Below, one piece after another: positions 4,341-64,000 of a stretch of 64,000 bases of DNA. Both the position numbers and the translations under genes were made by a program. How positions within the stretch are numbered: the stretch's first letter is position 1; each line of letters begins with the position of its first letter. Below the pieces are notes generated by a model, which was given only the letters and a program-made list of their open reading frames with translations, made no database searches and was not told the origin of the DNA. Origin of the DNA: a virus; the IMG/VR virus record IMGVR_UViG_3300025096_002712, positions 32,001-96,000 of that record; one strand, given 5' to 3'.

Positions 4341-7300
4341 TTGGCAGTTCCAAAACGTATAAATCCACTTATTGGATTAAAAGACCTTGATGTTTATGTA
4401 GAAGATACTGAATTTGATTCAGCGTATTTTAGAGTTTTAGAGTGCCCATCAGTACTTACACAGGGTAAGAGTAGTTTTCTTGTGGGGGGTTCTAATTTTT
4501 TAAAACCTGGAGTTGATGTTAAATTTGAAATAGTTCACGATATAACAAATGAGGTTATTTATACAGAGGCAGTTAGAGGTCATTTAGAAGGAGATTTACG
4601 AAGAGTTTCAATAGAAGTTTATGAGGATATTATTCCTGGTCCTGCTACATTATATATTGTTGGTGAATTAAATCCACAAACTATAGATGTAGAAATTCCT
4701 ATTTCTTGGCAAAATATTTATAATGTAAGGTGGACAAAAAATGTTACGATAAATGCAGCAGGAATCAATACTCAACCTATTTATTTTTATAAACAACCAA
4801 GTATAAATGTATCCGAAATATTCAGGGGATATTTGGTTTCTGATCCACCACCTACAGTTACAACATATTTAACTGGAAGTGGTGATCCACGACAGGGATT
4901 ATCTTCAATAGCTCCTGTTCAAAATGTAACATCTAATGGACAACAAACTACTGCAACTTATCCAGAAAAAGATTTTGCAGATAAAGCAAATTTGGCAAAA
5001 ATTGAAGAAAATAAACCTATAAATAAACTTACTGGTAAACAAGGACATATAGGTAAACAAGGTAAATTATTACAGAAAAGTTCTCCATCACCAGATGATT
5101 ATTTAATATCGGTCAGTAGTATTTCTCCTGTTAGTAGTTCTTATATAGGACATACTTTTACAATTAATAACCCACAAGTTGATTCGTCAAAATTTCAATT
5201 AGATTCTTATCATACAGTTCCAACGGTTTATACTGCATCTGTAATGAAAATTATTGATGAAACTACTTTTGTACCATCGAGTGTTTTTTATATTAATGAT
5301 ACGAGAACAACACCATCAACTCTTGTTCCCGCCCCACTCGGTAATCAATATATTACCGCAAGTTATCAAAACCTACCAAATCAAAATATATCAGCAAATA
5401 ATTTCTTTTCTTTTGCAGATGTAGAGTTATCTGATTTAAGAACATTTAGTGGTGATGTCCACAAAGTTAAAGTTTATGCAAAAAGTGAAGGTTCACTTGG
5501 AGATTTTGAAAAAATATATGATTCACCGATAGAAAGTTCAGAGATTTTATTAGATAGTTCCGACCTTACTCTATTGGGTAATATGGGTTATATTCAAGAC
5601 CTAAGTAGACTTAATTCTTATTGGGAAATATATCAAGGAAGTGATGGAAATGGTGGAAGTGGAACATTAAGTTATAGTTCTGCTTATATTGTTGATTCGA
5701 TGAAAATATCTGGATCAAATACACAATATGATGATGTATTAAGAGTCCAACTAAAAAAGGATGTTAGTTTTGTAGCAGGAAATACATATACCTTTCGAGC
5801 TTCCCTGTATGGGATAAAAGATTCAGTACAAACTATTAATGGAACTACAATAAATGATGGAAAGTTTGAAATATATGTTTCTGGTTCAGCATTTAATAAA
5901 GATACGACAGAGGGTTCACAATGGGGTATTAAAAAATTAAGTGTTCCAGATTTTCCCGATGGAGTTGGTAGTTATAATTTCGGTACAGTAGAGGGAGATT
6001 TTATAGCAGATAATACTGGTACTGGTAGGATTCAATTTAAAGTTCCATCGGGACAATGGTATGTGTCTGATGTTTCTGTTAAAGCATCGGCCGATACTGC
6101 ATTTAATCCAGAATATGTTAGAGTTGTTGCACCTATGCCACAATTATATGCACGGCCAGACCAAGTAAGATTTTTAGTAGAGTTTTACGATGTAAATAAT
6201 AATATAGCAGATTCGGTTATATTTAGTGATTATTTTACATTTCAAGGTGAAAATGTTTCTATAGGTGGAACTGATAATATATTGAGTGGTTCAATGTTCA
6301 TCTCAAACGCTACTGGTAGTGGTATAGAAATGGCTGGTATTGGTTCTGGATTCATTCGTTCTATGGGATATAAAGGATTTACAAGTGCATCTTCTTATCC
6401 AACGAGTGGTTCTGGATTTATGATGTGGAGTGGTTCTGTTTTATCTGATATAACAAGTGATTATACTCAAGGTGGAGTCGGATTAGAATTAGTAGGACAT
6501 AGTGGAAGTTATTTTAAGTTTAAAACAAATCCAAGTGAACTTGATATAAGAACAGATAAGTTTTTTATAGGTCAAGAGTCTATTCAATACATGAGTGGAT
6601 CTGATAGGAATATTGAAATCAGTTCTTCTTTATTTTGGTTAGATCCTAAAAATGATAGACTTATAATAGGTGCAGATGCCACTATTAATGCAGATTTAAG
6701 TGTAAATAATATATTTGCACCCGCTGGTACTAATATTTTAACTGCTAAAGCGGCAATTACATCACAAGGTTTTGCAAAATTTGTATCTGCTTCTATTGGG
6801 GCATTTAAACTTAACAATGATTCCTTGTTTTCTGGACCCCATAACAAACCAAATTTTTACATAAGTGGTTCCGCAACAGGTACAGATTATTTTATATCAT
6901 CTTCAAACTTTCAAGTAAGGGCAAGTGGTGAAGTTTCTGCATCATCATTAAAATTAAGTGGTGGAGATGTTGGTGGATTAACTGTTACTGAAGGTCAAGT
7001 GGCAGTAGGTGAGATTTTAAAATTAAAAGATAGTGGTGATATAACAGGTTCTGCAGTATTACTTGGTGATAAATCTATAAGTCAATATCTACAATATAAA
7101 AATAATTCATTAGTAGTTAGAGGGGATATTACAGTTGATTCTATCACAACACCAGCAACTATAGGTGGGGCAGCATCAACACCAGCTAACGCATCTGCAT
7201 CTATTGATTCGAGTGGTAATGCAATATTTAAATCTGGTTCTATTGCTGGGTGGAAAATAATTGGAAATTTATTATCGGGTTCAAATGCAACATTGGATGC

Positions 7301-10300
7301 AGATGGGGCGGCGTTATATATGTCCACAAAAGGACCAGATACAGATAGTGCGGCAGCATTTGACCAATTAAGAGATGAATATTATATTGATTTTACACCC
7401 GCAGACCAAGGTAATACTACAAATTATTATGTTAAGTTTGGTCCTAATTTTATGGTGGATAGTGATGGTATTCTTATAGCAAGTGGAGCAAAGTTTGAGG
7501 GAACTATAACTGCTTCTGCAGGTAGTATTGGTGGAGCATCAATAGAAAGTGCATCATTGGCTTATTCACCATATTGGAGAATATCATCTTCCGCAGCAAC
7601 AGATGATCCAGTATCGTTTATCTCATCAAGTCAATTTAAAGTTTCTGCAGATGGACGGATAACTGCAAGTGCAGCAAATATAGAAGGAAAGATAACTGCT
7701 ACAAGTGGTAAAATTGCAAATTGGGACATAATAGGTGATACACTTTCAAGTGTTAACGTTTCCAATAAAGGTATCCTACTTGATGCGGATGCATCAACAC
7801 CAATTATTGAAATTAGAGAAGATGATAATAATCGTTTACAATTATATCACACTACTTCTACTAATTGGGGTATTATAGGAAGAGCAGGTGGTACTAATTT
7901 ATTCCGATTGGGGAGTACAAATCAAATTGCAGGTTGGGCAATAAGTGGAAGTTATATTTCTAAGGCTATAAGTGGTTCAGTTGCACATCAAGATTATACG
8001 AGAGTTTATATGTCATCTGTCAATGACAATGCTAAAAATATTACAGAAGGTTTTAGTCTATATAGAAAAGATGAAGATACAGATAATGGAGCTACAAAGA
8101 TAGTTAGACTTGGTGGATTAAGTGATACTACTGATTTACATGCAAATGATGATTATGGTTTACAAGTAATAAGACAAGATACTGCTGGAAATTATTCTAA
8201 CCTTTTATATATTGGTTCGGGAAGTCAAACGATATCTGGTTGGAATATATCAACTACTGGATTTACTAATACTGGAATTGAATTATCTTCAACACAAGCT
8301 TCAATGTCGTTGGGAACTAACCGAGCGATTATTTTAAAAGGTGGAACTGCCAATCCATATATCAGTATTGGTCAATCAACAATTGCTTATGGTGAAGATG
8401 GATTATTACTTGCATACATCGGTACAGATCCAGTAGTTTCTTTTGTAGGAAGTGGTGGTTATCTTAAATTCAATGGTAGTACGATAGATATACAAACAGA
8501 TACTTTAAAGGCAAGTGGTAGTAATATTATATTAGAAGCACCAAGATTTTTCTTAGGTGGACAATCACAATATGTTAGTGGATCCAATGGAAACATAGAA
8601 ATCAGTTCTTCTAATTTTCATCTTACTAATGCAGGCGATGTTACAATGGCAGGTACTGTTACTGCTACAGCAGGTGAAATTGGTGGTTTTAGTATCAGTA
8701 GTGATGCAATTTATTCAGGAACTAATTTTTATTTAAGTGGTTCATCGAGTGGAAACAATTACTTTCTATCATCTTCTAATTTTAATATAAAGGCAAGTGG
8801 AGATATAACAGGTTCACAAGTATTATTTAGTGGTGGTAAAGTTGCTGGATGGGATTTAAGTAGTACAAGAATAACATCTCCTGATGGGGATATGAGATTA
8901 ACTTCGGGTAATCCAAAAATAACAATCGGTACACATACAATAGGAAATGGTCCAGGAATACAATTAGGTTACGATAGTGGTAATACATTAACATTTTTTG
9001 CTGGACAGAGTGGAACGGATTACATAAAATATACTGCTGGAACTGGAGTAGATATAAAAACAGCCGTTTTTAAACTTGATACAGATAATTTAGATATTAA
9101 TAGTGCAAATGGTGGATCTGTTGCACTTGGTACAACACCTAATACAAGTATTAGTGGTACGAATAAAGGTATCTTTATGAGTGGAAGTGGAGATTTCTTA
9201 CTTTATGGAAGTGCTACTAACTATTTTAAGTTTGATGCTACCGCAACTGCTATTGATATTAAATCAGATACTTTTGATTTGGCCACAACAACAATGATAT
9301 TGGATAGTGGAGTAAATAGTGGTAAAATAGCACTTGGAAATACACCACCAACTTCAGTAGCTTATACAGCCAACTCAGGTGTCTATATGGATGGTACTGG
9401 GGATTTTTTAGTTAGAGGTGATGCAAGTAACTATATAAAAATGTACTCCAATACCATTGATATTAAATCAGAAGTATTTGATTTAGATGCAGGTACATTA
9501 CTATTAAGTAGTGCAACCAATGGTGGTAAAATAGCACTTGGTGGAACGCCACCGACAGCATATAATAGTGGTGTGGGTGTCTACCTTGATGGTACAGGCA
9601 AAGCATTAATAGGAAACTCAACTGGTTCTATGGTACAATTCGATGGAGCTACCTTAATAATGAGTGCATCTAAATTTTATTTGGGTGGAAGTAGTCAATA
9701 TGTTAGTGGATCTAATGGAAACATAGAAATAAGTTCTTCTAATTTCTATCTTGACAATAGTGGTAATGTTACAATGGCGGGAACTATTACAGCAACCGCG
9801 GGTGCAATAGGTGGTTCTACTATAACATCCGATGCATTAGCTTATTCACCATATTGGAGAATATCAGCATCAAACGCCACATCAGATCCAGTATCATTTA
9901 TATCATCAAGTGCATTTAAAGTATCGGCTGGTGGTAATATAACTGGTTCATCAGTAAACTTTACGGGTGGTAAAATTGCAGGATTTACAATAGCAACTAC
10001 TGGTATAACATCTACAGGAATTGGTGTACATCCAACTGGACAAACATACGCATTTACTGCTGGTGGGAGTAATGAGTTTAATGTAAAACATAGTGGACAA
10101 ATAACGGGTTCTAATGTAAAATTTACTGGTGGTCAAATTGGTGGATGGGAAATAGATTCTGATGAAATAAAGAGTTCCGTTGTTACTATGAGTTCCGCAA
10201 CTCAAAGGATAGAAGTATCTGATGGAAGTGGTAATACGAGAGTAAGAATTGGTGAAGTAGATACAACTGCTGCAAGTAAATATGGTTTGGTTATTTTTGA

Positions 10301-13300
10301 TGGTTCTGGAACTGCATATAGTGATGAGATAGTTCACCTTGGAGATGCAAGAAATCAAATAGCAAGTTGGTCATTAAGTACATCTCAAATTTCAAGTAAT
10401 AATCTTATATTAGATTCGAGTGGAATCATACAAACATCAGATTTTGCAAGTGGTGTTAAGGGTTGGAGAATAACATCGGCAAATAATGGTGAGGCAGAAT
10501 TTGAAAAGGTTACTATTAGAGGAACATTGGCTACTACTGTATTTGAAAAAGAATCTGTAAGTGCCGTAGGTGGTCAATTATATGTAGCCAATTCAACTAT
10601 TATATCACAATCAACACAACTAGCAGCATCAGATACGACAATGAGTGTTGCAAATGTAGGTGGGTTTACTGGTAGTTACAATAATAATAATGGGGAAGTT
10701 ATATCTATTAAGAAAGTTACCGACACAGGATTTACAACAGAGTATGTTTTAATTCAAAGTGCATCAAGAGATAATCCTTCAAGTGATAAAGATTTAAGAG
10801 GTAAGTTATATGTAGTTCGTGGATATAGTGGTTCAACACCAGCAGATAGTAGTTCTCTTGGAGATGCTGCACAATCAGCTCAGACTTATGAAAATGGTCA
10901 AGTAATTGTTTCAACAGGTCGCGTCAATACTGGATATATTAGATTAAATGCTAATCCAAATGATACTACAACACCTTATATTGATATTGTTGAAAGAACT
11001 GGTTCTGCAATTTATGATGTAAGTTTAAAGGCAAGACTTGGGGATTTAAGTGGTTTAAGTAGTGGATTATTATATGGAAATACTTCTCCTGGATTTGGAT
11101 TATTTACAGAAAATGTATTCTTACAAGGTGCCATAACAGCCACAACTGGTTCATTTACAGGAATTGTACATATCAGAACTGATGCAAGTAATCAGATAAA
11201 AATGGGTACTAATGTTAATGGTAACGCCGATGGATTTTCCTTAAATAATAATAACTTTTGGTATACGACTGGTGATTTTAGAGTAGGTGGTGCTAGTAGT
11301 AATTATTTTTACATATCTGGTTCTACAATAGATATAAAAACAGATACATTAGTTGCAAGTGGAAGTTCAATACAATTAAAAACACCAAACTTTTATTTTG
11401 GTGATAGTTCCAATTATATAAGTGGAAGTGGTGGAAAAGTAGCAATAGTAAATACAGGTACAACAACCATAAGTGGAAGTGCAGTAAATATCCAAACACC
11501 TAAGTTTTATTTTGGAAACTCTCAAAATTTCATAAGTGGTTCAAATGATAATATTAAAATACAAAGTTATGGTACTACAACATTAAGTGGAAGTGAAGTA
11601 ACAATAGAAACTCCATCATTTTTCTTTGGTAAGAAAAGTACACAATTTGTAAGCGGCTCAAATGGTTATGTAGAAATAAGCTCGTCTAAATTTCATATAC
11701 AGGCAGATGGTGATGTCATAGCAAATAATATAACAGCGTCTAATATATCAATGTCAGGTGTTGTAAATGCCAGCGAAGGTGGTATTGGTGGTTGGGTTAT
11801 AGGATCTAATAAGATTTATACAGGAACGAATGAAACTGTAAGTGGATATACATCAGCCAATGGAAGATTAATATTATCTTCAAGTGGTGCAATTCATGCA
11901 AAAGGATTTTATGTTACAAAAGGTGGAAATGCATCTTTTAGTGGTTCTATATCTTCAAGTGAAGGTAATATAGCTGGTTGGACAATAGATGCAGATGAAA
12001 TAAAATCACCTGGTAGTACGGTAGTATTAGACTCAGATTCGAGTAATGGACAAATAAAATTAGGTTCAGCAACAGCTCTTAATACTGGTGATGGTATTTA
12101 CATGGATGGTGGTGGTAACTTTAGAGCCGGCGACGCAAATGGTAAGAGAATTCAATGGGATGGTACTAATATAACAGTAAGTGCTTCTGATTTCTTTTTC
12201 GGAGATAATTCAAATTATATAAGTGGAAGTGGTGGAAACTTAGCCATACAAAATACAGGTACAACAACTATAAGTGGAAGTGCAGTAAATATCCAAACAC
12301 CTAAGTTTTTCATGGGTGGAAGTAGTCAATATGTTAGTGGATCCAATGGAAACATCGAAATCAGTTCTTCTAATTTCCATCTTTCATCAAGTGGTGATGT
12401 TACAATGGCGGGAACTATTACTGCAACCGAGGGAGCAATAGGTGGTTCTACTATAACATCCGACGCATTAGCTTATTCACCATATTGGAGAATATCATCT
12501 TCTGCAGATACATCAGATCCTGTATCATTTATATCATCAAGTGCATTTAAAGTATCGGCTGGTGGTAATATAACTGGTTCGAGTGTTTTATTCGATGGTG
12601 GAAAAGTCGGTGGTTGGACAATTACAGAAAATCAATTAGAGGCCAATAATATTAAAATAAATGCAGCAAGTGGTTACATTGAAGCAGGAGAGTTGAGTAA
12701 TGTTAATGATATTGATGACACATCAGTAGGATTTTTCGCAAATAAAGATGGTGAAGTACTAATTAAAGCTGGAACTTCCGCAAATAAAAATTATATGCAG
12801 TTCAAAAATGGTACTTTAGATATCAATAGTGATAAAGTACATATCAGCGGAAGTCAGATAACATTGAAAACTCCTGATTTTTATTTTGGTGATAGTTCCA
12901 ATTATATAAGTGGTAGTGGTGGAAACTTAGCCATAGTAAATACTGGAACCACAACCATAAGTGGAAGTGCAGTAACAATTGAAACACCAAGATTCTTTTT
13001 GGGTCAGAAAAGTACACAATATATAAGTGGTTCACTCGGAAATGTAGAGATTAGTTCTTCAAAATTTCATTTACAAGCAGATGGTGATGTCATAGCAAAT
13101 AATATAACGGCATCTAATATATCAATGTCAGGTGTTGTAAATTCAAGTGCTGGTACAATTGGTGGATGGAAAATATTACCTGGGGTATTAAAATCACCTG
13201 GTGAGAATGTTATATTGTCCGCATCAAATGGTGGTTATATATCACTTGGTGCAACACCACCCATAACAGCATCAAGTGGTGTCGGTATATTCCTATCTGG

Positions 13301-14468: not shown

Positions 14469-14512
14469 CATAATGAAAAAATTATTAATATATATAATAA
14501 AGGAGTTTTAAA

Positions 14513-15898: not shown

Positions 15899-16181
15899 AT
15901 GGGGTGGTAAAGAAAATACAATAATACCAAAATGTGTATGTCCAACAAGTGGAGTAATATATTTGTCTGAAATAAGACAAGAACTTGAATCAACGAGTAA
16001 TTCAAATGATTATGGTAATGGGCCATGGACTACTAATACGACAACATTAAAAAATTGTAATCTCTTCGTGTATGATAGTAGAAATACTAATTCAGATGAT
16101 TATCCAAATAGTTCAGAACCACATAAGATGACAGAGTGGTATAGTTATCATCATAACGCAACAAGTGGTATGGGGATGTAA
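15891..16181 (+). CDS. Small putative fibre-tip/cap protein, 96 aa
   Basis: PTSGVIYLSEIRQE...KMTEWYSY pattern of small proteins that follow S74 fibres; overlaps the fibre stop. Confidence 0.55.
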   Translation: MVKWGGKENTIIPKCVCPTSGVIYLSEIRQELESTSNSNDYGNGPWTTNTTTLKNCNLFVYDSRNTNSDDYPNSSEPHKMTEWYSYHHNATSGMGM

Positions 16182-16594: not shown

Positions 16595-16609
16595 AAAGGG
16601 TAAATAGAA

Positions 16610-18135: not shown

Positions 18136-18143
18136 GAGTTATA

Positions 18144-19154: not shown

Positions 19155-19180
19155 TATTTATTAATAACACACAACACGGC

Positions 19181-27006: not shown

Positions 27007-27017
27007 GGAGAAAAATT

Positions 27018-27341: not shown

Positions 27342-27344
27342 ACC

Positions 27345-37069: not shown

Positions 37070-37077
37070 GAGTTGAT

Positions 37078-47107: not shown

Positions 47108-47116
47108 GGAGTTATT

Positions 47117-54275: not shown

Positions 54276-54277
54276 AA

Positions 54278-55339
54278 ATGGAAACACGATTTTATTTAAA
54301 TAATAAACTAATAGATAATTTTAATGAGATTTGGACGAATAGAATACTTTTCGAAAAGATCCAGGAAGTAAAAGTATCTAAACTTTGTGATATTTTTTTG
54401 ATTAAGCCTGGGTATCCAGAAGATAATCCATTTGATGTTATACAAACACTTGGTAAGGATAGAAAAATAATTGTGTGGTATATGGATACAGTTTCAAATC
54501 AGATATATTATAATCATAAAAATAGTATTAATATGTTATGTGAGAAGGGATATGATTTAAAAGTTATAATACCAGATCATTTAGACAATTATGATTTATC
54601 TTGTGAGGTTTTTAATAATTATTCAATGGCAGATTGTATTTTAGAACAGCAAGAGAGAGATAAGTGGTTGATAAGCTATTTATATAATGATAGAAAAAAA
54701 TTGTATAGACAAAAATATTTTTTATCCTTTAACGGAGTTCCTAAACTTCATAGGATTGCACTTTTAGGTCTTATTATTTCTAATAATTTGTTGAAAAAAT
54801 TTGATATATCCTTCAATTCATTTTTTTGGAATGAAGAATTAAATTTAAGTGGTTTAAGTGAGTATAATATTGAGAAGTTTGATACTTCAATTTTACCTTT
54901 ACATTTGGATTTGTTAGAATCAACATATTATACATCCACTAAATTGAATTTACCATTATATTCTAATTCTTATATAGATATAGTTTCTTGCTCTAATTAT
55001 AATAGGGATGGTGTTTATATTGATGAAAAAACTTATAAATCCTTTGCATGTATGAAACCATTTATTTTAGTTAGTCAATGTGGGGCATTAAAAAAATTAA
55101 GAGAATTGGGATTTAAAACTTTTTCACCTTGGATAGACGAATCATATGATGATGAAAAGAATCATGTTAAAAGAATGAGTTTAATTGTTGAAGAAATAAA
55201 AAGAATCTCTAAATTATCATTAAAAGAAATTGATAAAATGTATTTTGATATGGAGTTGGTTTTGAAACACAATAGTAGTCAATTAGGAATTTATATACAT
55301 AATACAGATAAAAAAATATTGGGTATTTTTAATGATTGA
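54278..55339 (+). CDS. GT10-like protein, paralog 5 (start probably 54278)
   Basis: YFLSFNGVPKLHR, YIDEKTYK..KPFI, GFKTFSPWIDESYD. Confidence 0.55.
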   Translation: METRFYLNNKLIDNFNEIWTNRILFEKIQEVKVSKLCDIFLIKPGYPEDNPFDVIQTLGKDRKIIVWYMDTVSNQIYYNHKNSINMLCEKGYDLKVIIPDHLDNYDLSCEVFNNYSMADCILEQQERDKWLISYLYNDRKKLYRQKYFLSFNGVPKLHRIALLGLIISNNLLKKFDISFNSFFWNEELNLSGLSEYNIEKFDTSILPLHLDLLESTYYTSTKLNLPLYSNSYIDIVSCSNYNRDGVYIDEKTYKSFACMKPFILVSQCGALKKLRELGFKTFSPWIDESYDDEKNHVKRMSLIVEEIKRISKLSLKEIDKMYFDMELVLKHNSSQLGIYIHNTDKKILGIFND

Positions 55340-56573
55340 TGTAGTTTATATTAAATATGTAGATGGCAAATATAATATTGTTACTGATATGGGATTGGTT
55401 TTTGATAATAGTTTTTTCATGGATAAGTTTTCTAATATTAATAATTTTGTTAATAATGAAATTAATTTGTGTGATAATTTTCCAAGTAATGAGTATGTGA
55501 TAATATTAGATCCAGAAGATGCAGCAGATGCTATACGATATATTGAATCTTCTAAAAATATTATTTCAGATTTAAAAAAAAATAAATGTAGGATATTTGT
55601 TACTATAAGAGAAGGAGCAGTAAATGATAATGGTAGTACCCATTTTGATTTTGAAAATTCTACATATGATCCAGGGGAGTTAGGTTATATAATAAAAGAA
55701 AATAAGATTCCACGAGATAATTTTATTTGGATGAGTCCTGAGATTTTGATAAATGATGAACATTATAGTGATTTTGATTTTACTCATAAATTTTTTAATA
55801 TTTGGTTACTAAAATTAGATAATGTTAGTAGATCACATTATTATCCACACATGATGAACTTGTTTAAAAGAGGAACAAACTTTTCGAGAACAAAATATTT
55901 TTATACAGTTAATTCATCACCACGACCACATAGATTAGAATTGTTAGATTTTCTTAAAAATAACAATTTATTAAAATATGGAAATGCCAATTTTTTTAGT
56001 AATGCACACGGAGAAACATCCAATAGTGATTATCATACTGATTGGATGGGTGTAGAGATGGTGGGTAGCAAAGATTTAAAATGGAATGATGAAAACTATC
56101 ATATGGGTGCACAAATTAATGATAATGAGAGTTATCTTCCAACATATGCAATTAATGTAGTTCAATCTTTTAATGCATATTTTCAAATTATAACAACTTC
56201 TATATATGATTATGATAAAGATTGTAAATATCCATATATTTTTTTTAATGAAAAAATATGGAAGTCTATGATTACATTACAACCTTTTATTATTATGTCT
56301 CAACCTAATATTTTAAGAATGTTAAAGGAGTTTGGATTTAAAACATTTCATCCATATATTGATGAGAGTTACGATAGTGTTTTAGATGATGATGAAAGGA
56401 AAAATCTTATTTTTAAGGAGATAAAAAGATTGTGTTCTATGACAAGAGATGATATACATAAGTGGTTTTGGAATACAAAAGATATATTAGTACATAATCA
56501 TAATAGACTTTCTGAATATTCAGATGAACATTGTGCTGATTTTATAGAATTATTGAAGAAAAATATTAATTAA
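55332..56573 (+). CDS. GT10-like protein, paralog 6
   Basis: NSSPRPHR, YFQIIT..FFNEKIWK..QPFI, GFKTFHPYIDESYD. Confidence 0.55.
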   Translation: MIDVVYIKYVDGKYNIVTDMGLVFDNSFFMDKFSNINNFVNNEINLCDNFPSNEYVIILDPEDAADAIRYIESSKNIISDLKKNKCRIFVTIREGAVNDNGSTHFDFENSTYDPGELGYIIKENKIPRDNFIWMSPEILINDEHYSDFDFTHKFFNIWLLKLDNVSRSHYYPHMMNLFKRGTNFSRTKYFYTVNSSPRPHRLELLDFLKNNNLLKYGNANFFSNAHGETSNSDYHTDWMGVEMVGSKDLKWNDENYHMGAQINDNESYLPTYAINVVQSFNAYFQIITTSIYDYDKDCKYPYIFFNEKIWKSMITLQPFIIMSQPNILRMLKEFGFKTFHPYIDESYDSVLDDDERKNLIFKEIKRLCSMTRDDIHKWFWNTKDILVHNHNRLSEYSDEHCADFIELLKKNIN

Positions 56574-56701: not shown

Positions 56702-57733
56702 ATGCGAGTTTTAATAACAGGTATTACAGGTTTTGTCGGTAGTCATATGGTAGACTACTTAATCAAAAATGTTCCAAATGTAGAAATATTTGCAATTCGA
56801 AGGTGGAGAAGTAGAGACGATAGTATTAAACATTTATATTCTCCTGAAAAATATGGCGATGATAAACAAGATAATGTTCAATTCATAGAGTCAGATTTAT
56901 TAGATAGGGGAAGTATTTATAATGCAATTTATATTTCAAAACCAGATGTTGTTTATCATTTTGCCGCTCAAAGTTTTCCAGAAGCTAGTTTTCTAACACC
57001 AAGTAGTACGCTAACTACTAACATAATAGGAACTACAAATCTCTTAGAAGAATTACGACTTGCAAAAGAAAGAAATTATTGTAATCCTACAATAATAAGT
57101 GTTTCTTCATCAGAAGTTTATGGTAATCCAACCGAAGATGAAATACCAATCACAGAAGATAATCCAATTAGAGCAGCAAATCCCTATTCTATATCAAAAG
57201 TTGGACATGATTTAATGTCCCAATATTATCATAAGGCATATGATATGAAAGTTATAATCACTCGAATGTTTTCACACGAGGGTTCTCGTAGAGGAAAACG
57301 ATTTGCATTATCATGGTTTGCATATCAAATAGCAATGGCAGAAAATAGAGAGGATTTTCCGCCCTATGCTCCAAGTTTTCCAACACATCCTATTAAACAC
57401 GGAAATCTTGATTCTGTTAGAACTTACAATCATATAGAAGATGCAGTTTATGCCTATTGGTTGGCAGTAGATAAATGTGATTATGGAGAAGTGTATAACA
57501 TCGGTGGAGATTATACTTGTACGGTTGGAGATGCATTAGATATGTTGATATCCAAATCAAAAAATCCAAAGGCCTTTATAAAAGAACTTGATCCTGATAG
57601 AGTCAGGCCAACAGATATCACATTGCAGATACCAAGTAGTGATAAGTTTAGAGAAAAAACTGGATGGAAACCAACAAAAGGATTGGAAGAAATTTGTGAA
57701 GATTTATTAAATTATTGGAGAGGGGTTTTATAG
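56702..57733 (+). CDS. gmd: GDP-mannose 4,6-dehydratase-like SDR
   Basis: TGITGFVGSH, HFAAQS, SSSEVYG, PYSISK, GNLDSVR, RPTDI. Confidence 0.8.
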   Translation: MRVLITGITGFVGSHMVDYLIKNVPNVEIFAIRRWRSRDDSIKHLYSPEKYGDDKQDNVQFIESDLLDRGSIYNAIYISKPDVVYHFAAQSFPEASFLTPSSTLTTNIIGTTNLLEELRLAKERNYCNPTIISVSSSEVYGNPTEDEIPITEDNPIRAANPYSISKVGHDLMSQYYHKAYDMKVIITRMFSHEGSRRGKRFALSWFAYQIAMAENREDFPPYAPSFPTHPIKHGNLDSVRTYNHIEDAVYAYWLAVDKCDYGEVYNIGGDYTCTVGDALDMLISKSKNPKAFIKELDPDRVRPTDITLQIPSSDKFREKTGWKPTKGLEEICEDLLNYWRGVL

Positions 57734-58326
57734 TGAAAAATAGATTTTATGCAGTGGATATGTTTTATTATCCTTATGTCCAAAAACATTTGGGTGATAA
57801 ATCACTACAAAATATTGTAACTACTGGTGGTTCTTTTGGAGCAATACATTGTGAAATTAAAAGACACGATGAACTTACATATGAAAATATTTTTCATTAT
57901 GAATTGATGGATAATCAAATACTTGACTTTGAGGATCAACGCCAATTTGGGGGTAAAATAGGTGGTAATGTAAAAAGTAAATCAGGACAAATAATAAAAG
58001 ATAATATTTTATGTCCAGATGACCCCATTCAATCTGTAAATTTAATTTATGCTGATGTCGGTGGAAATGGAGAATTGTATGATATAATGATGGAAGGTGG
58101 TATTGAAAACGGGGTGAATAAAATACTTGAAGCTGGATTTGTTAATAATAAACTTGGAATATTAGTTTTTTTATATTTTGATGGGATAGGAATAGAACCA
58201 TTTTTAGATAAACAATATGGTTCTTATAAATCAAAAGATTTTTTTAGTTCAAACATCGTGTGGGATGATGGACAACCAAACTGTTCTGGAACTCAAAGAT
58301 TAGATGGAGTAGTATTTTATGAGTGA
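57733..58326 (+). CDS. Hypothetical protein (start probably GTG 57733)
   Basis: Operon-coupled ORF; no recognisable motif. Confidence 0.6.
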   Translation: MKNRFYAVDMFYYPYVQKHLGDKSLQNIVTTGGSFGAIHCEIKRHDELTYENIFHYELMDNQILDFEDQRQFGGKIGGNVKSKSGQIIKDNILCPDDPIQSVNLIYADVGGNGELYDIMMEGGIENGVNKILEAGFVNNKLGILVFLYFDGIGIEPFLDKQYGSYKSKDFFSSNIVWDDGQPNCSGTQRLDGVVFYE

Positions 58327-58840
58327 TTTTAAAGTAGAAGTAATAGATTCAGAAGTGTTTCCTGAGGTGAAAATATTGAAACCTGATCCTTGGTTTGATT
58401 ATCGCGGTGAAATGTGGACATTTTGGGAAAAGGAAAACGAAGTGTTACCAAAAAAACACGAATGGAAAATATCCAAGTTTACTCGTTCAAGAAAAAATGT
58501 TCTTCGTGGATTACACGGAGATAATGTAACTTGGAAAAATATTACTTGTGTGTGGGGAGAAATATATCTGGTAGTTGTAGATAACCGACCAGATTCAGTA
58601 AATTATTTAGAATGGGATAGTTTTCTTATTTCTGAAAGAAATCATTTGAGTGTCTTAGTTCCACCTAATTTTTTAAATGGTCATTTATGTTTAAGTGAAG
58701 AATGTTTATTTCATTATACACAGGCATATCCAAACGACTACGTAGATTGGCAAGACCAAGATACTGCTAAGTGGAATGATGAAAGAATAGGAATAGAGTG
58801 GCCTATAAAAAACCCTATATTAAATTGGAGAGATAAGTGA
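58319..58840 (+). CDS. rmlC: dTDP-4-dehydrorhamnose 3,5-epimerase-like cupin
   Basis: DYRGE, SRKNVLRGLH, VVVDNRPDS, VPPNFLNGH, WND..IGIEWP. Confidence 0.85.
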   Translation: MSDFKVEVIDSEVFPEVKILKPDPWFDYRGEMWTFWEKENEVLPKKHEWKISKFTRSRKNVLRGLHGDNVTWKNITCVWGEIYLVVVDNRPDSVNYLEWDSFLISERNHLSVLVPPNFLNGHLCLSEECLFHYTQAYPNDYVDWQDQDTAKWNDERIGIEWPIKNPILNWRDK

Positions 58841-59325: not shown

Positions 59326-59326
59326 T

Positions 59327-59914
59327 ATGATAGATAAACAATTTTTAATAGACTTTGAAACAGAAGTCAAAGAACGATATGAAGCAGGTGAAATTAAAGC
59401 GCCTGTTCATCTTGCATCAAATAATGAAGATGAACTTATAGAAATATTCGAGAATGTTAATAAAGATGATTGGGTATTTGCTAGTTGGAGAAATCATTAT
59501 CATGCATTATTACACGGAATACCAAGAGATGTTCTGATGAACCAAATTATTAGAGGTAAGAGTATGAGTGTGTACTCAAAAGAACCAAAGTTTTATTCAT
59601 CTGCAATAGTTGGTGGGATAATTCCAATAGCACTTGGAGTTGCACAATCAATTAAATTAAAAGGTGAATCAAATAAAGTTTGGTGTTTTGTTGGAGATAT
59701 GACTTTTGAGAGTGGAATATTTCACGAGTCATATAAATACGCTAAGAACTTTGATTTACCATTACGATTTGTAGTTGAGGATAATAATCTTTCTACAAAT
59801 ACACCAGTTGATGAAACTTGGGGTGGTAAACAAGAAGTTCCAAGTGATATAATTTATTATCAATATAAAAGTGATTATCCACATCACGGAACAGGAAATT
59901 GGGTGTTATTCTAA
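59327..59914 (+). CDS. TPP-dependent dehydrogenase E1 alpha-like subunit (short)
   Basis: WRNHYHAL, SAIVGG, GDMTFESG...EDNN TPP-binding motif, YPHHG. Confidence 0.85.
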   Translation: MIDKQFLIDFETEVKERYEAGEIKAPVHLASNNEDELIEIFENVNKDDWVFASWRNHYHALLHGIPRDVLMNQIIRGKSMSVYSKEPKFYSSAIVGGIIPIALGVAQSIKLKGESNKVWCFVGDMTFESGIFHESYKYAKNFDLPLRFVVEDNNLSTNTPVDETWGGKQEVPSDIIYYQYKSDYPHHGTGNWVLF

Positions 59915-60444
59915 TGAAGTATAAAGATGAATTAATAAGAAGTATGGAGTGGTTATCCGAAAAAGAAGATACATATTTTATCGGACAATCAGTTAAGTAT
60001 AGTGGTAATGCAATTTACAATACATTGAGTACATTACCAAGTGAAAAATTAATTGAATTACCAGTATTTGAAGAAATTCAAATGAGTATGAGTACAGGTA
60101 TGGCTATGAATGGATTAGTTCCTATTAGTTGTTTTCCACGATTTGATTTTTTAATGAGATGTATGGATGCGTTGGTAAATCATTTAGATAAAATGCAAAA
60201 TATGACCGAATTCAATTATAGACCAAAAGTAATTATGAGAACATCTATTGGTTCTACCAATCCTTTAAATGGTGGTGTTCAGCATACCAATAATTATACA
60301 AATGAATTTAAATCAATTTTAAAAGAAGTCAAAGTTGTATTGTTAAATGAACCAGAAGAAATATTTCCTGCGTTTGAGAAGGCATATAATAGACAAGGTT
60401 CTACATTATTGATTGAACACGGAGATCATTATAATGATAAGTAA
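59914..60444 (+). CDS. E1 beta/transketolase pyrimidine-binding-like subunit (start probably 59914; lacks C-terminal domain)
   Basis: IELPVFEEIQMSMSTGMA, DALVNHLDK, GGVQH; TAATG coupling. Confidence 0.8.
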   Translation: MKYKDELIRSMEWLSEKEDTYFIGQSVKYSGNAIYNTLSTLPSEKLIELPVFEEIQMSMSTGMAMNGLVPISCFPRFDFLMRCMDALVNHLDKMQNMTEFNYRPKVIMRTSIGSTNPLNGGVQHTNNYTNEFKSILKEVKVVLLNEPEEIFPAFEKAYNRQGSTLLIEHGDHYNDK

Positions 60445-61606
60445 ATCTTTAGATTTAACTGGACAATCACTATGGAAATATCCACTTGCAAGTGATACTA
60501 TAGATGAACTTGATATAAGTTCTCTAATTGATTGGTTAAGCACAAATCCAAGACTTACTATGGGGGATGTTACTAAAAAGTTTGAAAGATTATGGGCCGA
60601 ATATATTGGTACTAAATATTCTGTATATGTTAATAGTGGTTCATCAGCAAATTTATTGATGGTGTATTCTCTGTTAAATGCTAACAAATTAAAGAATAAA
60701 AGATTGTTAGTTCCAGCGTGTGGATGGGTTACTACCGTAAGCCCACTCATTCAGTTTGGTATTGAACCTATAATGGTTGATGCAGATAAAGACAATTATA
60801 ATATTGATTTGAATATCGTAGAAGATTATTTAAAACAAGGTGATATTGATGGGTTTATATTTGTTCATGTTCTTGGAGTTCCACACAGAAAGAAAGACCT
60901 TTTATATTTAAAGGAAAAGTATGGATGTTATATTCTCGAAGATTCTTGTGCATCAGTCGGTGCCAAGTATGACGATGGAAGTTATGTTGGTACACTTGGG
61001 GATATGTCATCTTATTCATTTTATTTTGGTCATCAATTATCTACGATTGAAGGTGGTTTTATTAATACAGACGATGAGTTTTTATATAAGGAATTATTAA
61101 AGTTAAGATCACACGGGTGGGTAAAGGATATAGTAAATGATGAATATCGAAATGATGAAAACTTTCCTTTTATATTTAATGAACCAGGATTTAATGTAAG
61201 GTCTACTGATTTACAGGCATATATAGGATTGGGACAATTAAAAAAGGCTGATGGTATATTTCAAAAACGAAGCGAAAATCATTTACGGTATATTGAAAAA
61301 TTAAATTATAGGTTTGAATTACAAGATTGTACAAATACTATTCCTGTTAGTTTACATATTGGTATATTGGCAGAATCAAACGAACATAGAAAAAAAGTAA
61401 TTCAAGAATGTAATGAGAATAGTATAGAAACAAGAGTTTGGTCACACGGAAATCTTGGAAAACATAATTTTTGGACAAGTAGATATGGTGAATTTGAAGG
61501 AAAAATTGCAAACAAAATTTATGAACGAGGATTTATTATACCAACTCATCCATTAATAAACTTGGAAGATGTAGATTTCATATCAGAGGTTTGTAATGGA
61601 GTATAA
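60434..61606 (+). CDS. DegT-fold PLP enzyme with His at the Schiff-base position (ColD/E1-type 3-dehydratase-like; start probably 60434)
   Basis: VNSGSSANLL, EDSC, SFYFGHQLSTIEGG, LRSHGW, PGFNVR. Confidence 0.8.
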   Translation: MISKSLDLTGQSLWKYPLASDTIDELDISSLIDWLSTNPRLTMGDVTKKFERLWAEYIGTKYSVYVNSGSSANLLMVYSLLNANKLKNKRLLVPACGWVTTVSPLIQFGIEPIMVDADKDNYNIDLNIVEDYLKQGDIDGFIFVHVLGVPHRKKDLLYLKEKYGCYILEDSCASVGAKYDDGSYVGTLGDMSSYSFYFGHQLSTIEGGFINTDDEFLYKELLKLRSHGWVKDIVNDEYRNDENFPFIFNEPGFNVRSTDLQAYIGLGQLKKADGIFQKRSENHLRYIEKLNYRFELQDCTNTIPVSLHIGILAESNEHRKKVIQECNENSIETRVWSHGNLGKHNFWTSRYGEFEGKIANKIYERGFIIPTHPLINLEDVDFISEVCNGV

Positions 61607-62222
61607 TAAATTTCTTAAAGAGGGATATATAATAGTTGATGACTTTTTACCACAAGATGAGGCGTTAAAATTAGAATCGTTATATTCTAATAATAGTGAT
61701 TGGTCACTTGCAGATCAAGTAAGAGACGATTTATATACAACATCTCATTTTCAAAGTGCACGAACAAAATCTAAGTACTTACCTAAAGAGAATGAATCAT
61801 ATAGTGCTAGATTTTGGAGTTCTGTAGAATTGGTTTCACAAGTAGAAAAAATTCATGATAAATATTTTAAACCTTTATTGAAAGAAATTAGTTCGTTTGA
61901 GTTGAGTGAATATAATGTTAGATGTTATAAAATGGATGAGGGTTGTCATTACAGAACACATTTAGACCAATGGGTTGGTGATATTGGCTGTATATATTAC
62001 ATTAATCAAAAATGGATGTGGGATTGGGGAGGCATATTACATTTGGATACAGCATCAGAAGAAAATGATGATAGTGATTCTGTTGTTCCAATTTTTCCAA
62101 AATTTAATCGAGCATTGATTATGAATAATACACTTGAAAAGTTTAAGTTTCCACATTTTATTAGTCATGTGGCAGACTACGCACAGTATCCAAGATATAC
62201 ATTAATTACATTTGGGAGATAA
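61596..62222 (+). CDS. Fe(II)/2OG oxygenase (prolyl-4-hydroxylase-like)
   Basis: YRTHLD, YYIN..W..DWGG.L, PKFNR, HFISHV, RYTL. Confidence 0.85.
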   Translation: MEYNKFLKEGYIIVDDFLPQDEALKLESLYSNNSDWSLADQVRDDLYTTSHFQSARTKSKYLPKENESYSARFWSSVELVSQVEKIHDKYFKPLLKEISSFELSEYNVRCYKMDEGCHYRTHLDQWVGDIGCIYYINQKWMWDWGGILHLDTASEENDDSDSVVPIFPKFNRALIMNNTLEKFKFPHFISHVADYAQYPRYTLITFGR

Positions 62223-62223
62223 A

Positions 62224-63198
62224 ATGTTTAAAGATAAAAATATATTAGTAACTGGTGGAACAGGAATGATAGGTAGAGAGTTAGTTCAACTACTATTAGA
62301 TAGGGGAGCAAAAATAAGAGTTGCATCACTTGATGAACCAGTTGATTTTTTTGAAGAAGTAGAATTTCATAAAGTAGATTTGACCAATTATGAAAATTGT
62401 GAAATGATATGTGAGGGTATGGATTATGTATTTCATGTTGCTGGTATAAAGGCATCTGCGGAAATGCCTAAAATAAAACCTTTAAATTATTTTATTCCAT
62501 TGGTTAAGTTTAATATTAATATGATGGAAGCAGCATTTAAAGCAGGAGTGAATTGGTATTTATATACGAGTTCGTATGGAGTATACACACCATCAGAAAT
62601 ATCACACGAAGATGATATGTGGAAAACATTTCCATCTGATAATGATAAGTTGCCTGGTTGGGCAAAACGAATGGGTGAATTACAGGCAGAAGGTTATAAA
62701 ATACAATATGATTGGGATAATATTTCTATTGTTAGACCAGCCAATGTTTATGGTAAATGGGATAATTTTGAATTAGAAACTGCAATGGTAATCCCATCTT
62801 TAATTAGAAAGGCAGAAGAGGCAGGTGTTGGTGGAACTATGAGTGTTTGGGGAGATGGAACACCAATTAGAGATTTTATTCATTCTAAAGATGTAGCAAG
62901 AGGAATGGTTTTTGCAGTAGAAAATAAAATAACTGAACCATTGAATCTTGGAAGTGGGGATGGTGTTAATATTGCAAAATTAGCATCAAGTATTGCTGCA
63001 CGTTTTGAATGTGGAATTGATTTTGATTCAAGTAAACCAAATGGTGATCACAAAAGAATATTAGATATGTCAAGGGCATATAGTTATGGTTTTAAAAATG
63101 TGGTTGATATTGATGATGGTATTGAAGAAACTATTGAATGGTATCTTGATAATAAAGATAATAAATTAGATTTTAGACATAATCCATTTGAGGACTGA
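62224..63198 (+). CDS. GDP-L-fucose synthase/ColC-like extended SDR (start probably 62224)
   Basis: TGGTGMIG, RPANVYG, VIPSLIRK, VWGDGTPIRDFIH, NLGSG, FDSSKPNG; YxxxK appears as PGWAK. Confidence 0.75.
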   Translation: MFKDKNILVTGGTGMIGRELVQLLLDRGAKIRVASLDEPVDFFEEVEFHKVDLTNYENCEMICEGMDYVFHVAGIKASAEMPKIKPLNYFIPLVKFNINMMEAAFKAGVNWYLYTSSYGVYTPSEISHEDDMWKTFPSDNDKLPGWAKRMGELQAEGYKIQYDWDNISIVRPANVYGKWDNFELETAMVIPSLIRKAEEAGVGGTMSVWGDGTPIRDFIHSKDVARGMVFAVENKITEPLNLGSGDGVNIAKLASSIAARFECGIDFDSSKPNGDHKRILDMSRAYSYGFKNVVDIDDGIEETIEWYLDNKDNKLDFRHNPFED

Positions 63199-63199
63199 T

Positions 63200-64000
63200 A
63201 TGGGATATTTAAAAATAACGAACAAATTTTGGCAAAGTGACGTCTGTACTGGTTTTGGAAATCGTATTCCACATTGGGCATTAGCATATAAAATAAGTGA
63301 ACACCACGATTTTAAATTTACTATTTTACTTGATTCATTTCATTGGCCAGAAACCACTTATGTTGATTTCCCACAGACAGAATCTACTTTTTTAGATGAT
63401 AATTTATACGGAGAGTTTATAGAACTCACAATGGATGAGAGTATATTAGACTTGGATACATCTAAAAATTACTATTTGAATGGTGAGAATTTAGAAAGTG
63501 TAGAAAAATCAGAACCATCTAATCCAGAACCAACTGGAATTTTCTATTTACCTCCAGTTTATACATTATTAAAATTAAAAAATTCTTATTTAGAGTCTTT
63601 AATAAAAGATAAAGTAAAAGATGCAGTAGGTGTTCATGTGAGAAAAAATAATGTTGCTCCTGTTGATATTTCAGAAGGAGATATTATTTACGAAAGAAAT
63701 ACTGATTTATATGAAGCATATGAAAAGGTAGAATATATTAATACCTTTTCTGAATTGGTAAAAGATTATGATGATGGTCAAATATTTTACATAAGTAGTG
63801 ATATATCAACAACATATAGAGATTTAAAGGCTATGAATGAAGAAGAACTTTTTTCTTTGTTCCCTAATTATAGTGATTTTTTTGTTACAAAAGAAATATA
63901 TCAAGAATATAATTGTATAGATTATACTGATATAATTCCAGATTATAATTTTGGATTTCCACTTGGAGCTATGAATGATAATGGTGTATTAAAAAGTGGT
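63200..64000 (+). CDS. GT11-like fucosyltransferase-like protein, 3'-truncated, absent from ORF track
   Basis: Manual translation open to the window end: MGYLKIT..TGFGNRI..AVGVHVRK..FYISSD. Confidence 0.7.
   Translation, partial: MGYLKITNKFWQSDVCTGFGNRIPHWALAYKISEHHDFKFTILLDSFHWPETTYVDFPQTESTFLDDNLYGEFIELTMDESILDLDTSKNYYLNGENLESVEKSEPSNPEPTGIFYLPPVYTLLKLKNSYLESLIKDKVKDAVGVHVRKNNVAPVDISEGDIIYERNTDLYEAYEKVEYINTFSELVKDYDDGQIFYISSDISTTYRDLKAMNEEELFSLFPNYSDFFVTKEIYQEYNCIDYTDIIPDYNFGFPLGAMNDNGVLKSG

What the first reader, a model, noticed from the sequence alone, without database searches (positions are those of the whole stretch)
4341..64000. Candidate phage-encoded virion glycosylation system: a ~43 kb soluble glycan-building island next to structural proteins full of [ST]-[GAS]-S triplets
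Seen: SGS/SAS/SSS/TGS/TAS triplets (often hydrophobic-S-G-S) recur throughout the 3375-aa protein and also in the otherwise dissimilar 461-, 360- and 498-aa structural proteins, including non-repetitive parts; they look much rarer in the downstream enzymes. About 15 GT-like genes, NDP-sugar synthesis and many tailoring enzymes lie in or right after the structural block. I saw no Wzx/Wzy/ABC exporter, no priming phosphoglycosyltransferase and no obvious polytopic membrane protein. Established: some phages glycosylate their virions with their own GTs; Ser-Gly is the acceptor in animal proteoglycans, where a GT7 enzyme (B4GALT7) extends the linker. Inference: the triplet is an O-glycosylation sequon and the island builds a heavily decorated glycan on the virion in the cytoplasm, rather than a lipid-linked host polysaccharide.
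Basis: partly seen in the sequence, partly recalled or inferred. Interest (0 to 1): 0.9.

Follow-up and report, generated by a model that had tools for sequence, protein, structure and literature searches.

The report
Phage fibre Ser-Gly-Ser tag, giant sugar island
A large uncultured marine phage carries the ordered tripeptide Ser/Thr-Gly/Ala-Ser far too often on its tail-fibre and baseplate proteins. Next to these genes lies a 53-kb block of soluble sugar-building genes, so the phage probably coats its own particle with a complex sugar, though no chemistry shows this and the tripeptide does not depend on this block.

Summary
[ST]-[GA]-S, and above all S-G-S (85 seen, 13.7 expected), is the most enriched tripeptide in nine fibre and baseplate proteins of this 106-kb phage contig. 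It is not enriched in the 51 island enzymes. Permuted triplets are not enriched, and T4, RsoM2USA and BCD7 show no excess.

The island is real and entirely soluble. It holds up to 16 glycosyltransferases, nine of them from a new Pfam-less GT-B family. A complete relative with the same island has no priming transferase or flippase.

The proposed link between motif and island is not supported as stated. Mel-JY01, immuto, G001 and RM378 show the same bias, and the first three keep it at conserved positions. All four lack the island's transferases.

In my sample the bias instead follows a conserved tandem GT4 pair encoded elsewhere. The pair is present in 5 of 5 biased genomes and absent or incomplete in 4 of 4 unbiased ones.

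Best reading (about 0.45): cytoplasmic O-glycosylation of outer virion proteins, with the island as an optional module that elaborates the glycan. The main rival is a structural turn motif.

This scan has noted the same tripeptide bias before on other DNA (141 notes in at least 124 genomes). Nothing is proven chemically.

The parts
4341..14468 (+). 3375-aa fibre protein. Residues ~660-3330 are diverged ~50-115-aa repeats. It carries 72 [ST][GA]S sites.
   Evidence: No Pfam or PDB match.
14513..15898 (+). 461-aa fibre protein with a Peptidase_S74 intramolecular chaperone domain. Motif-biased (10 vs 3.1).
16181..16594 (+). SET-domain protein among the fibre genes
   Evidence: PF00856, E 1.9e-8
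16610..17053 (+). 147-aa protein with a Peptidase_S74 domain
17053..18135 (+). 360-aa motif-biased protein (8 vs 1.9) ending in a Hint-like domain
18144..19154 (+). 336-aa conserved ORF of unknown family, possibly a GT-B glycosyltransferase (lead only)
   Evidence: 57% identical in G002 and 38% in LR756508. ESM Atlas clusters are auto-named CAP10/AGT-like. No Pfam, PDB or hhalign support.
19236..20732 (+). 498-aa protein with DUF642 and a C-terminal Hint-like domain. Weakly motif-biased (6 vs 2.4).
20790..23958 (+). Start of the island: Methyltransf_24 methyltransferase and an 822-aa radical-SAM-like protein
24674..25528 (+). GT2_4-like glycosyltransferase (below the Pfam cut-off)
   Evidence: E 1.8e-5
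25525..30325 (+). Three tandem GT7 galactosyltransferase-like enzymes, each with a LamG_3 domain. A 107-aa ORF lies between the first and second.
   Evidence: 36 related IMG/VR loci.
30325..32115 (+). 596-aa radical SAM enzyme, paralog of the B12-rSAM set
32118..33407 (+). GT-B paralog 1 of the new Pfam-less family
33419..36098 (+). B12-binding radical SAM enzyme (656 aa) and PhyH dioxygenase
36110..37069 (+). phrog_32718 member with a weak match to a phage glycosyltransferase family (phrog_2644). Paralog at 46079.
37060..39268 (+). UDP-glucose/GDP-mannose dehydrogenase and a GT92 glycosyltransferase
39366..41865 (+). Three DUF6071-family paralogs. A fourth lies at 49304-50050.
41865..43355 (+). 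NodU/CmcH-type carbamoyltransferase
   Evidence: E 8.8e-57
43358..44656 (+). GT-B paralog 2, the member that was folded
44616..46082 (+). B12-binding radical SAM enzyme (488 aa)
46079..48079 (+). Second phrog_32718 paralog and an SDR epimerase/dehydratase
48079..49410 (+). GT-B paralog 3
50553..51671 (+). GT-B paralog 4
52362..54275 (+). B12-binding radical SAM enzyme (637 aa)
54230..56573 (+). GT-B paralogs 5 and 6
56702..58840 (+). NDP-hexose 4,6-dehydratase, a 203-aa unknown ORF and an RmlC-like 3,5-epimerase
59327..60444 (+). Split thiamine-diphosphate E1-type enzyme (alpha-like and beta-like halves). Inferred to add a two-carbon branch to a sugar.
   Evidence: PF00676, PF02779. The function is inferred by analogy to E1-type enzymes in branched-sugar pathways, from my own knowledge.
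60413..64000 (+). DegT aminotransferase, 2OG-Fe(II) oxygenase, SDR epimerase and the start of a further ORF. The island continues to the contig end with three more GT-B paralogs, a B12-rSAM enzyme and SDRs.

Best explanation
The window holds the distal fibre module of a large marine myovirus. CheckV puts the contig at 45% of the genome, and a complete relative is 216 kb. An all-soluble glycan factory of at least 53 kb follows the fibre genes.

Proposed mechanism. Host NDP-sugars are re-tailored by a UDP-sugar dehydrogenase, a 4,6-dehydratase, a 3,5-epimerase, an aminotransferase, SDR reductases/epimerases and a ThDP-dependent C2-branching enzyme. Up to 16 glycosyltransferases then assemble the sugars: three GT7-LamG, one GT92, one GT2-like, nine new GT-B paralogs and two phrog_2644-like. 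Five B12-radical-SAM enzymes, a carbamoyltransferase, a methyltransferase, dioxygenases and four DUF6071 proteins decorate the product.

The acceptor is most likely the phage's own outer proteins, glycosylated in the cytoplasm before or during assembly. The hydrophobic-[ST]-[GA]-S tripeptide is the probable attachment tag.

The tag is older and more widespread than the island. It is probably read by a conserved tandem GT4 pair encoded elsewhere in the genome, off this contig. The island would then be a variable, lineage-specific module that lengthens and decorates the glycan.

Shown: the motif excess and its specificity, the gene content, solubility, the GT-B fold, synteny, and the co-occurrence pattern. 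Inferred: that any Ser carries sugar, which enzyme starts the chain, and what the glycan is.
For: - Motif excess and order-specificity.
- The bias is restricted to fibre and distal baseplate proteins here and in complete relatives.
- The bias is absent from fibre and baseplate proteins of T4, RsoM2USA and BCD7.
- Motif sites are nearly invariant in 120 homologues of the 351-aa family, with 8.7 per protein against 1.2 expected.
- Island content.
- The nine-member family folds confidently (pLDDT 81) and every top PDB match is a GT-B glycosyltransferase (Z up to 13.6 over 311 residues).
- No TM proteins in the island. In complete G002, no ORF of 150 aa or more near the island has three or more TM-like segments. 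No PGT or Wzx in G002.
- The island follows the fibre genes in G002, G015 and several IMG/VR loci.
- The tandem GT4 pair is present in Mel-JY01, immuto, G001 and G002 and, diverged, in RM378. RM378 was then predicted to be biased and found to be so.
- The pair is absent or incomplete in T4, RsoM2USA, BCD7 and LR756508. All four are unbiased, although LR756508 has orthologues of the biased proteins.
Against: - There is no chemical evidence at all.
- The motif does not co-vary with the island.
- In G002 the fibre-tip proteins next to the island are not biased.
- Motif sites sit in invariant, hydrophobic contexts. Gly is the most conserved position, and S and T do not interchange at a given site. 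That pattern also fits a structural turn.
- Two sites survive in LR756508, which lacks the second GT.
- In G002 the GT4 pair lies beside Mom, nuclease and clamp-loader genes. That neighbourhood would equally suit DNA modification.
- G015 (83% complete) has strong bias but no pair on its contig.
- The 5-of-5 versus 0-of-4 association is small and phylogenetically confounded.
- This contig does not include the region where the pair would lie.
Confidence: 0.45

Rival explanations
1. The tripeptide is a structural element, a tight turn between two beta-strands, of the fibre and baseplate folds used by this broad phage clade. It is not a modification site. The island makes a glycan for some other acceptor.
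For: - Sites are positionally conserved across 36-70% identical homologues, with invariant Gly and invariant hydrophobic flanks.
- The motif recurs at fixed positions of the internal repeats of the 3375-aa fibre.
- The bias is independent of the island.
- The two best-conserved sites persist in LR756508.
Against: - At least six BLAST-unrelated protein families share the motif.
- No N- or D-containing turn tripeptide (NG*, DG*) appears among the 40 most enriched tripeptides, and S-N-S and S-D-S are depleted.
- Three unrelated myoviruses lack the excess.
- The orthologous proteins of LR756508 have largely lost the excess.
- RM378, distant and at 42% GC, has the bias together with the GT pair.
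Confidence: 0.3
2. The island remodels a host envelope polysaccharide during infection. Its soluble GTs act on undecaprenyl-linked intermediates started and exported by host enzymes.
For: - GTs of O-antigen and capsule pathways are typically soluble or peripheral (established knowledge).
- The island has the paralog-rich, variable make-up of surface-glycan loci.
Against: - No PGT, Wzx or multi-TM protein on this contig. The complete relative G002 has no PGT or Wzx match, and its only ORF of 150 aa or more with three or more TM-like segments lies far from the island.
- More than 50 genes is a very large investment for a lytic phage to spend on a host glycan.
- The island is co-oriented with and directly downstream of the fibre genes.
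Confidence: 0.12
3. The island glycosylates phage DNA bases or makes a free aminoglycoside-like small molecule.
For: - B12-rSAM methylases, a carbamoyltransferase, a PhyH dioxygenase and DegT aminotransferases also occur together in aminoglycoside pathways (own knowledge).
- Phage GTs that hypermodify DNA are known (Pyle et al. 2024, cited in PMC12619734).
- T4 DNA glucosyltransferases are among the fold matches.
Against: - No base-hydroxymethylase is seen on the contig.
- GT7-LamG and GT92 are glycan- or protein-directed families.
- Sixteen GTs far exceed those of known DNA-glycan systems.
- No cyclitol or core-scaffold enzymes are recognised.
Confidence: 0.08

Closest known systems
Mycobacteriophage virion O-glycosylation by phage-encoded glycosyltransferases (Freeman et al. 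2023, as described in PMC12619734; the paper itself was not held)
   Same: The phage encodes its own soluble GTs. Structural proteins are the proposed acceptors, and modification occurs in the host cytoplasm.
   Different: There, glycans sit at the C-termini of capsid and tail-tube subunits and only a few GTs are involved. Here an internal ordered tripeptide marks fibre and baseplate proteins, with a GT4 pair plus an island of up to 16 GTs and more than 30 tailoring genes. There is no chemical proof here.
Autonomous glycosylation machinery of giant viruses (chlorovirus capsid glycans, Mimivirus/Megavirinae fibril glycans; PMC9614988, PMC10117803, PMC8456856)
   Same: Virus-encoded NDP-sugar pathways for rare bacterial-like sugars work with soluble GTs. 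They decorate outer virion fibrils without host secretory or lipid-carrier machinery, and the gene clusters are clade-specific. The lineage GT4 best matches chlorovirus GT B736L in the PDB (E 9.6e-8).
   Different: Those viruses infect eukaryotes and are unrelated to this one. This is a tailed phage. Its island is rich in B12-radical-SAM enzymes, and a short candidate sequon is visible.
Bacterial autotransporter heptosyltransferases (Aah/AIDA-I, TibC/TibA)
   Same: Cytoplasmic O-glycosylation of many serines in repeated beta-rich passenger domains. Recognition is reported to involve a strand-loop-strand motif (own knowledge).
   Different: The GT family and the sugar differ. The strand-turn-strand context here is inferred from sequence only, and no BAHT homologue was sought.
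Animal proteoglycan linker synthesis (Ser-Gly acceptor, GT7 B4GALT7)
   Same: A Ser-Gly-containing acceptor, and GT7-family enzymes are present.
   Different: The flanks are hydrophobic, not acidic. No xylosyltransferase-type domain was found in any scanned ORF. The GT7 genes are absent from most motif-bearing relatives.

Membership tests
Phage/virus-encoded virion glycosylation system | The virus encodes its own glycosyltransferases and sugar-nucleotide enzymes | tested here: met
Phage/virus-encoded virion glycosylation system | A structural protein carries covalently bound glycan | not testable with these tools
   Needs mass spectrometry or glycan staining of virions.
Phage/virus-encoded virion glycosylation system | Acceptor sites lie on exposed parts of virion proteins | tested here: inconclusive
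   The AF2 model of the 351-aa motif-rich protein failed (pLDDT 32). There is no PDB relative. Only sequence context is available.
Wzx/Wzy- or ABC-dependent lipid-linked polysaccharide locus | Priming phosphoglycosyltransferase | tested here: not met
   PF02397 is absent from this contig and from complete G002, while 10 of 14 control genomes were positive. PF00953 was not searched.
Wzx/Wzy- or ABC-dependent lipid-linked polysaccharide locus | Flippase, polymerase or other polytopic membrane proteins | tested here: not met
   PF01943 is absent. No island ORF has a credible TM segment. In G002 only one ORF of 150 aa or more has three or more TM-like segments, and it is far from the island.
GT-B fold glycosyltransferases (nine-member paralog family) | Two Rossmann-like domains that superpose on solved GT-B enzymes | tested here: met
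   pLDDT 81, pTM 0.86. All 50 top VIA-align matches are GT-B GTs, with Z 13.6-8.2. Foldseek agrees.
GT10 fucosyltransferases | Sequence match to PF00852 or specific structural closeness to FucT | tested here: inconclusive
   No Pfam hit even at E 10. FucT 5zoi has Z 11.3, tied with many other GT-B families. The ESM Atlas lead scores only 0.79.
GT7 (beta-1,4-galactosyltransferase-like) | Glyco_transf_7N and 7C domains above the Pfam cut-offs | tested here: met
   Three proteins, E 1e-12 to 5e-25, each also with LamG_3.
Proteoglycan-type Ser-Gly xylosylation | Acidic residues flanking Ser-Gly, and a xylosyltransferase | tested here: not met
   The flanks are enriched in I/V/L/Y/F, not D/E. No such domain appears in the Pfam scans.

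The most novel reading that the evidence does not exclude
Hydrophobic-[ST]-[GA]-S is a true O-glycosylation sequon used by several lineages of aquatic tailed phages. A conserved phage GT4 pair reads it. Some lineages, this one included, have added a hypervariable elaboration island of 50 kb or more, so the virion wears a complex, methylated, carbamoylated, branched-sugar coat comparable to those of giant viruses. The nine-paralog GT-B family (12,255 cluster representatives, no Pfam model) would be its chain-building enzymes.
Probability: 0.35. Interest if true: 0.9.

Novelty: new variant of a known kind. Interest (0 to 1): 0.7.

Why it matters
If the tag is a sequon, virion glycosylation would be a common and overlooked feature of abundant marine phages. 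The 351-aa family alone has more than 5,900 metagenomic homologues. A sequence signature would let glycosylated proteins be predicted from genomes.

The island would be by far the largest glycan-building locus known in a phage. It is also a source of unexplored enzymes: a large Pfam-less GT-B family, GT7-LamG fusions, and B12-radical-SAM sugar methylases.

Three cultured phages carry both the tag and the GT pair: Flavobacterium phage immuto, Microcystis phage Mel-JY01 and Rhodothermus phage RM378. The question can therefore be tested directly.

Tried and rejected
- AF2 of the 351-aa motif-rich protein with a 42-sequence alignment gave pLDDT 32, so the motif could not be mapped on a structure.
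- Sequence and profile searches of the PDB with the 351-aa family, the 3375-aa fibre, the 336-aa ORF and the GT-B family found nothing.
- hhalign of the 336-aa family against the GT-B family and against a GT4 gave no support. Its GT status stays a lead.
- Pfam at E 10 on the nine paralogs found no GT10.
- PHROGs left eight of ten unknown island ORFs unnamed.
- A DNA-level artefact was rejected. There are 25 distinct codon triplets among 85 SGS, although the first Ser is AGT in 67%.
- Low complexity was rejected, because permuted triplets are not enriched.
- 'Any fibre protein has it' was rejected on T4, RsoM2USA and BCD7.
- The search for the GT4 pair on 19 island-bearing IMG/VR contigs was uninformative because they are fragments. 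G015, 83% complete, lacks it.
- Literature searches found no paper on this motif or on Mel-JY01. Freeman et al. 2023 is not held.
Full report
**What the DNA is.** The window is bases 32001-96000 of a single 106,290-bp IMG/VR virus contig (31.5% GC, every gene on the + strand, both ends cut inside ORFs). CheckV estimates it is 45% complete. Upstream of the window lie gp25-like and gp6-like baseplate wedge genes and tail-fibre genes. The window opens with a DnaG-type primase and a fused SbcCD-like protein.

By the gp6-like protein, the nearest cultured relatives are Microcystis phage Mel-JY01 (46% identity) and Flavobacterium phage immuto (40%). The 484-kb uncultured phage LR756508 is also 40% identical. 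IMG/VR holds 539 loci of the same lineage. They include G002 (216 kb, 100% complete), G001 (293 kb, 91%) and G015 (164 kb, 83%). One baseplate-region family of about 350 aa has more than 5,900 metagenomic homologues, many from Tara Oceans. The host is unknown.

Each ORF of the contig was compared with 300 shuffles of its own residues. Only nine proteins show an excess of [ST][GAS]S:
- five upstream of the window (507 aa, 2844 aa and three ~360-aa paralogs).

Pooled over these nine, S-G-S is the single most enriched of all tripeptides (85 vs 13.7, z 20). S-A-S (31 vs 7.9) and T-G-S (28 vs 9.0) follow. SSG, GSS, GGS and SGG sit at expectation, and S-x-S is enriched only for x = G or A, weakly for S. 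Composition and low complexity are therefore excluded.

The residue before the motif is hydrophobic in 61% of sites against a 31% background, and position -2 is often aromatic. The codons are varied. By BLAST the nine proteins form at least six unrelated families. The 3375-aa protein is largely made of diverged repeats. After removing repeats, paralogs and Hint domains the excess remains: 59 vs 14.3, Poisson p about 8e-19. The 51 island ORFs have 7 vs 10.2. Baseplate and fibre proteins of T4, Ralstonia phage RsoM2USA and Bacillus phage BCD7 show no excess.

**The island.** From window 20790 to the contig end (at least 53 kb) lie 51 co-oriented ORFs.

Pfam names these:
- three GT7 enzymes with LamG_3 domains, one GT92 and one GT2_4-like protein;
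- a UDP-sugar dehydrogenase, a 4,6-dehydratase and an RmlC-like epimerase;
- a split ThDP E1-type enzyme, a DegT aminotransferase and five SDRs;
- a carbamoyltransferase, a methyltransferase, and PhyH and 2OG oxygenases;
- four DUF6071 proteins, and five paralogous radical-SAM enzymes (four with B12-binding domains) plus an 822-aa radical-SAM-like protein.

All-against-all BLAST revealed a nine-member paralog family of 370-445 aa, six members in the window, with no Pfam, PHROG or PDB sequence match. A profile of the nine finds 12,255 cluster representatives in the 1.84-billion-protein library.

With a 77-sequence alignment, AlphaFold gives a confident model (pLDDT 81, pTM 0.86). All top structural matches are GT-B glycosyltransferases: Z 13.6 with 311 aligned residues down to Z 8.2 at rank 50. 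They include T4 beta-glucosyltransferase, FucT, POGLUT1, a chlorovirus GT and GtfA/B-type enzymes. Assignment to a specific CAZy family is not possible. Adding two weak phrog_2644-like proteins, the island encodes up to 16 GTs.

**No lipid-carrier machinery.** No island ORF has a credible TM segment. The complete relative G002 carries a homologous island directly after its fibre genes. G002 has no PF02397 or PF01943 match. Its only ORF of 150 aa or more with three or more TM-like segments lies about 130 kb from the island. The 'flippase just outside the window' refutation therefore fails for the best available proxy.

**The motif is not tied to the island.** Mel-JY01, immuto and G001 show the same bias in the orthologous post-baseplate proteins. 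In immuto the 1053-aa 'tail spike' has 53 vs 12. Yet tblastn with every protein of this contig finds none of the island GTs in them.

In the ~350-aa family, seven motif sites are almost invariant across 120 homologues whose mean column identity is 68%. Several persist to Mel-JY01 and immuto at 36-40% identity. Gly is the most conserved position, S and T do not swap at a given site, and the flanks are conserved too. In G002 the fibre-tip proteins next to the island are not biased. The motif is therefore ancient, lineage-wide and under selection. The island is a later, variable addition.

**A better correlate.** Earlier follow-up notes of this scan report the same tripeptide bias in many other phage genomes and link it to a conserved pair of phage GTs. 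I tested that lead.

A tandem pair of GT4-type genes, followed by a small GT2, is conserved in Mel-JY01, immuto, G001 and G002. In G002 the pair lies at 120244-121632 and 121641-122996. It sits beside Mom-family, PD-(D/E)XK and clamp-loader genes.

The only other cultured phage with a homologue of the first gene is Rhodothermus phage RM378. Its adjacent gene p014 aligns collinearly with the second GT. I then predicted a bias in RM378 and found one. A block of ORFs at 64.8-78.5 kb has z 3.4-6.4, and TGS, TAS and SGS are among its top four tripeptides.

T4, RsoM2USA and BCD7 lack both genes. LR756508 has the first but not the second. None of these four shows a biased ORF. LR756508 nevertheless has orthologues of the biased proteins, which have largely lost the excess while keeping the two most conserved sites.

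The tally is five of five against zero of four. The sample is small and phylogenetically confounded. G015 (83% complete, strong bias, island present) shows no pair on its contig. The pair's replication-module neighbourhood would also suit DNA modification. This contig does not reach the region where the pair would lie.

**Reading.** I put about 0.45 on cytoplasmic O-glycosylation of outer virion proteins at the tag, started by the conserved GT pair and elaborated in this sub-lineage by the island. About 0.30 goes to the tag being a purely structural turn, with the island serving another acceptor. About 0.12 goes to host-envelope remodelling, and about 0.08 to DNA or small-molecule products.

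The closest known systems are mycobacteriophage virion glycosylation (known here through PMC12619734) and the autonomous glycosylation machinery of giant viruses (PMC9614988, PMC10117803, PMC8456856).

**Limits.** There is no chemistry and no structure of a motif-bearing protein. The genome is incomplete, and the 336-aa ORF among the fibre genes remains unassigned.

Noticed in passing
window 32118-33407, 43358-44656, 48079-49410, 50553-51671, 54230-56573; L003 2653-7209: A nine-member paralog family with no Pfam, PHROG or PDB sequence match folds as a GT-B glycosyltransferase. Its profile finds 12,255 cluster representatives in the 1.84-billion-protein library, so it is a very large undescribed GT family. 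Its conserved C-terminal signature is TE..EKIWK..PFI..GFKTF.P.IDESYD.
   Followed up: yes
window 17053-18135 and 19236-20732: Two fibre-region proteins end in Hint-like domains (weak Pfam hits to Hom_end_hint and PT-HINT) and are 32% identical over that part. This may be a C-terminal autoprocessing module, used where other fibres have the S74 chaperone. Whether cleavage couples to attachment of another group is unknown.
   Followed up: partly
window 16181-16594: A SET-domain (lysine methyltransferase-type) gene sits among the fibre genes.
   Followed up: no
window 924-4085: A single 1053-aa polypeptide joins an Mre11/SbcD-type phosphoesterase to an SbcC/Rad50-type ATPase. It is conserved in Mel-JY01, G001, G015 and LR756508.
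   Followed up: partly
L164 17667-18302 and L165 244-4590 (relative G002): The lineage-conserved GT4-GT4-GT2 cluster lies immediately after a Mom-family gene, a PD-(D/E)XK nuclease and a clamp-loader gene. The first GT4's best PDB match is chlorovirus glycosyltransferase B736L (E 9.6e-8).
   Followed up: partly
L001 11270-19801 (upstream of the window): The 2844-aa protein is more than twice as long as its orthologues (1246-1400 aa). Near its C-terminus it carries a 32-residue periodic repeat, each unit with E-[ST]-G-S-[FL]-x-S-A-S.
   Followed up: partly
window 4341-20732 (motif codons): The first Ser of S-G-S is encoded by AGT in 67% of cases, against 37% for all Ser in the same proteins. 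The third Ser follows normal usage. AGT is one mutation from ACT (Thr), which fits the S/T alternation at that position.
   Followed up: partly
window 59327-60444: A thiamine-diphosphate E1-type enzyme is split into alpha-like and beta-like genes and lies among NDP-sugar enzymes. It is 77-84% identical in G002. This suggests a two-carbon branched sugar.
   Followed up: no
L205 8262-13904 (relative G015): An 1880-aa ORF has 86 [ST][GA]S against 20.7 expected (z 14.5). This is the strongest single-protein bias seen here.
   Followed up: no
proteins P0064 and P0359: Homologues of phage structural and fibre-region proteins are deposited under MAGs named Woesearchaeota and Pelagibacteraceae. These are probably binning artefacts. 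The Pelagibacteraceae label and the 31% GC are only a faint hint about the host.
   Followed up: no
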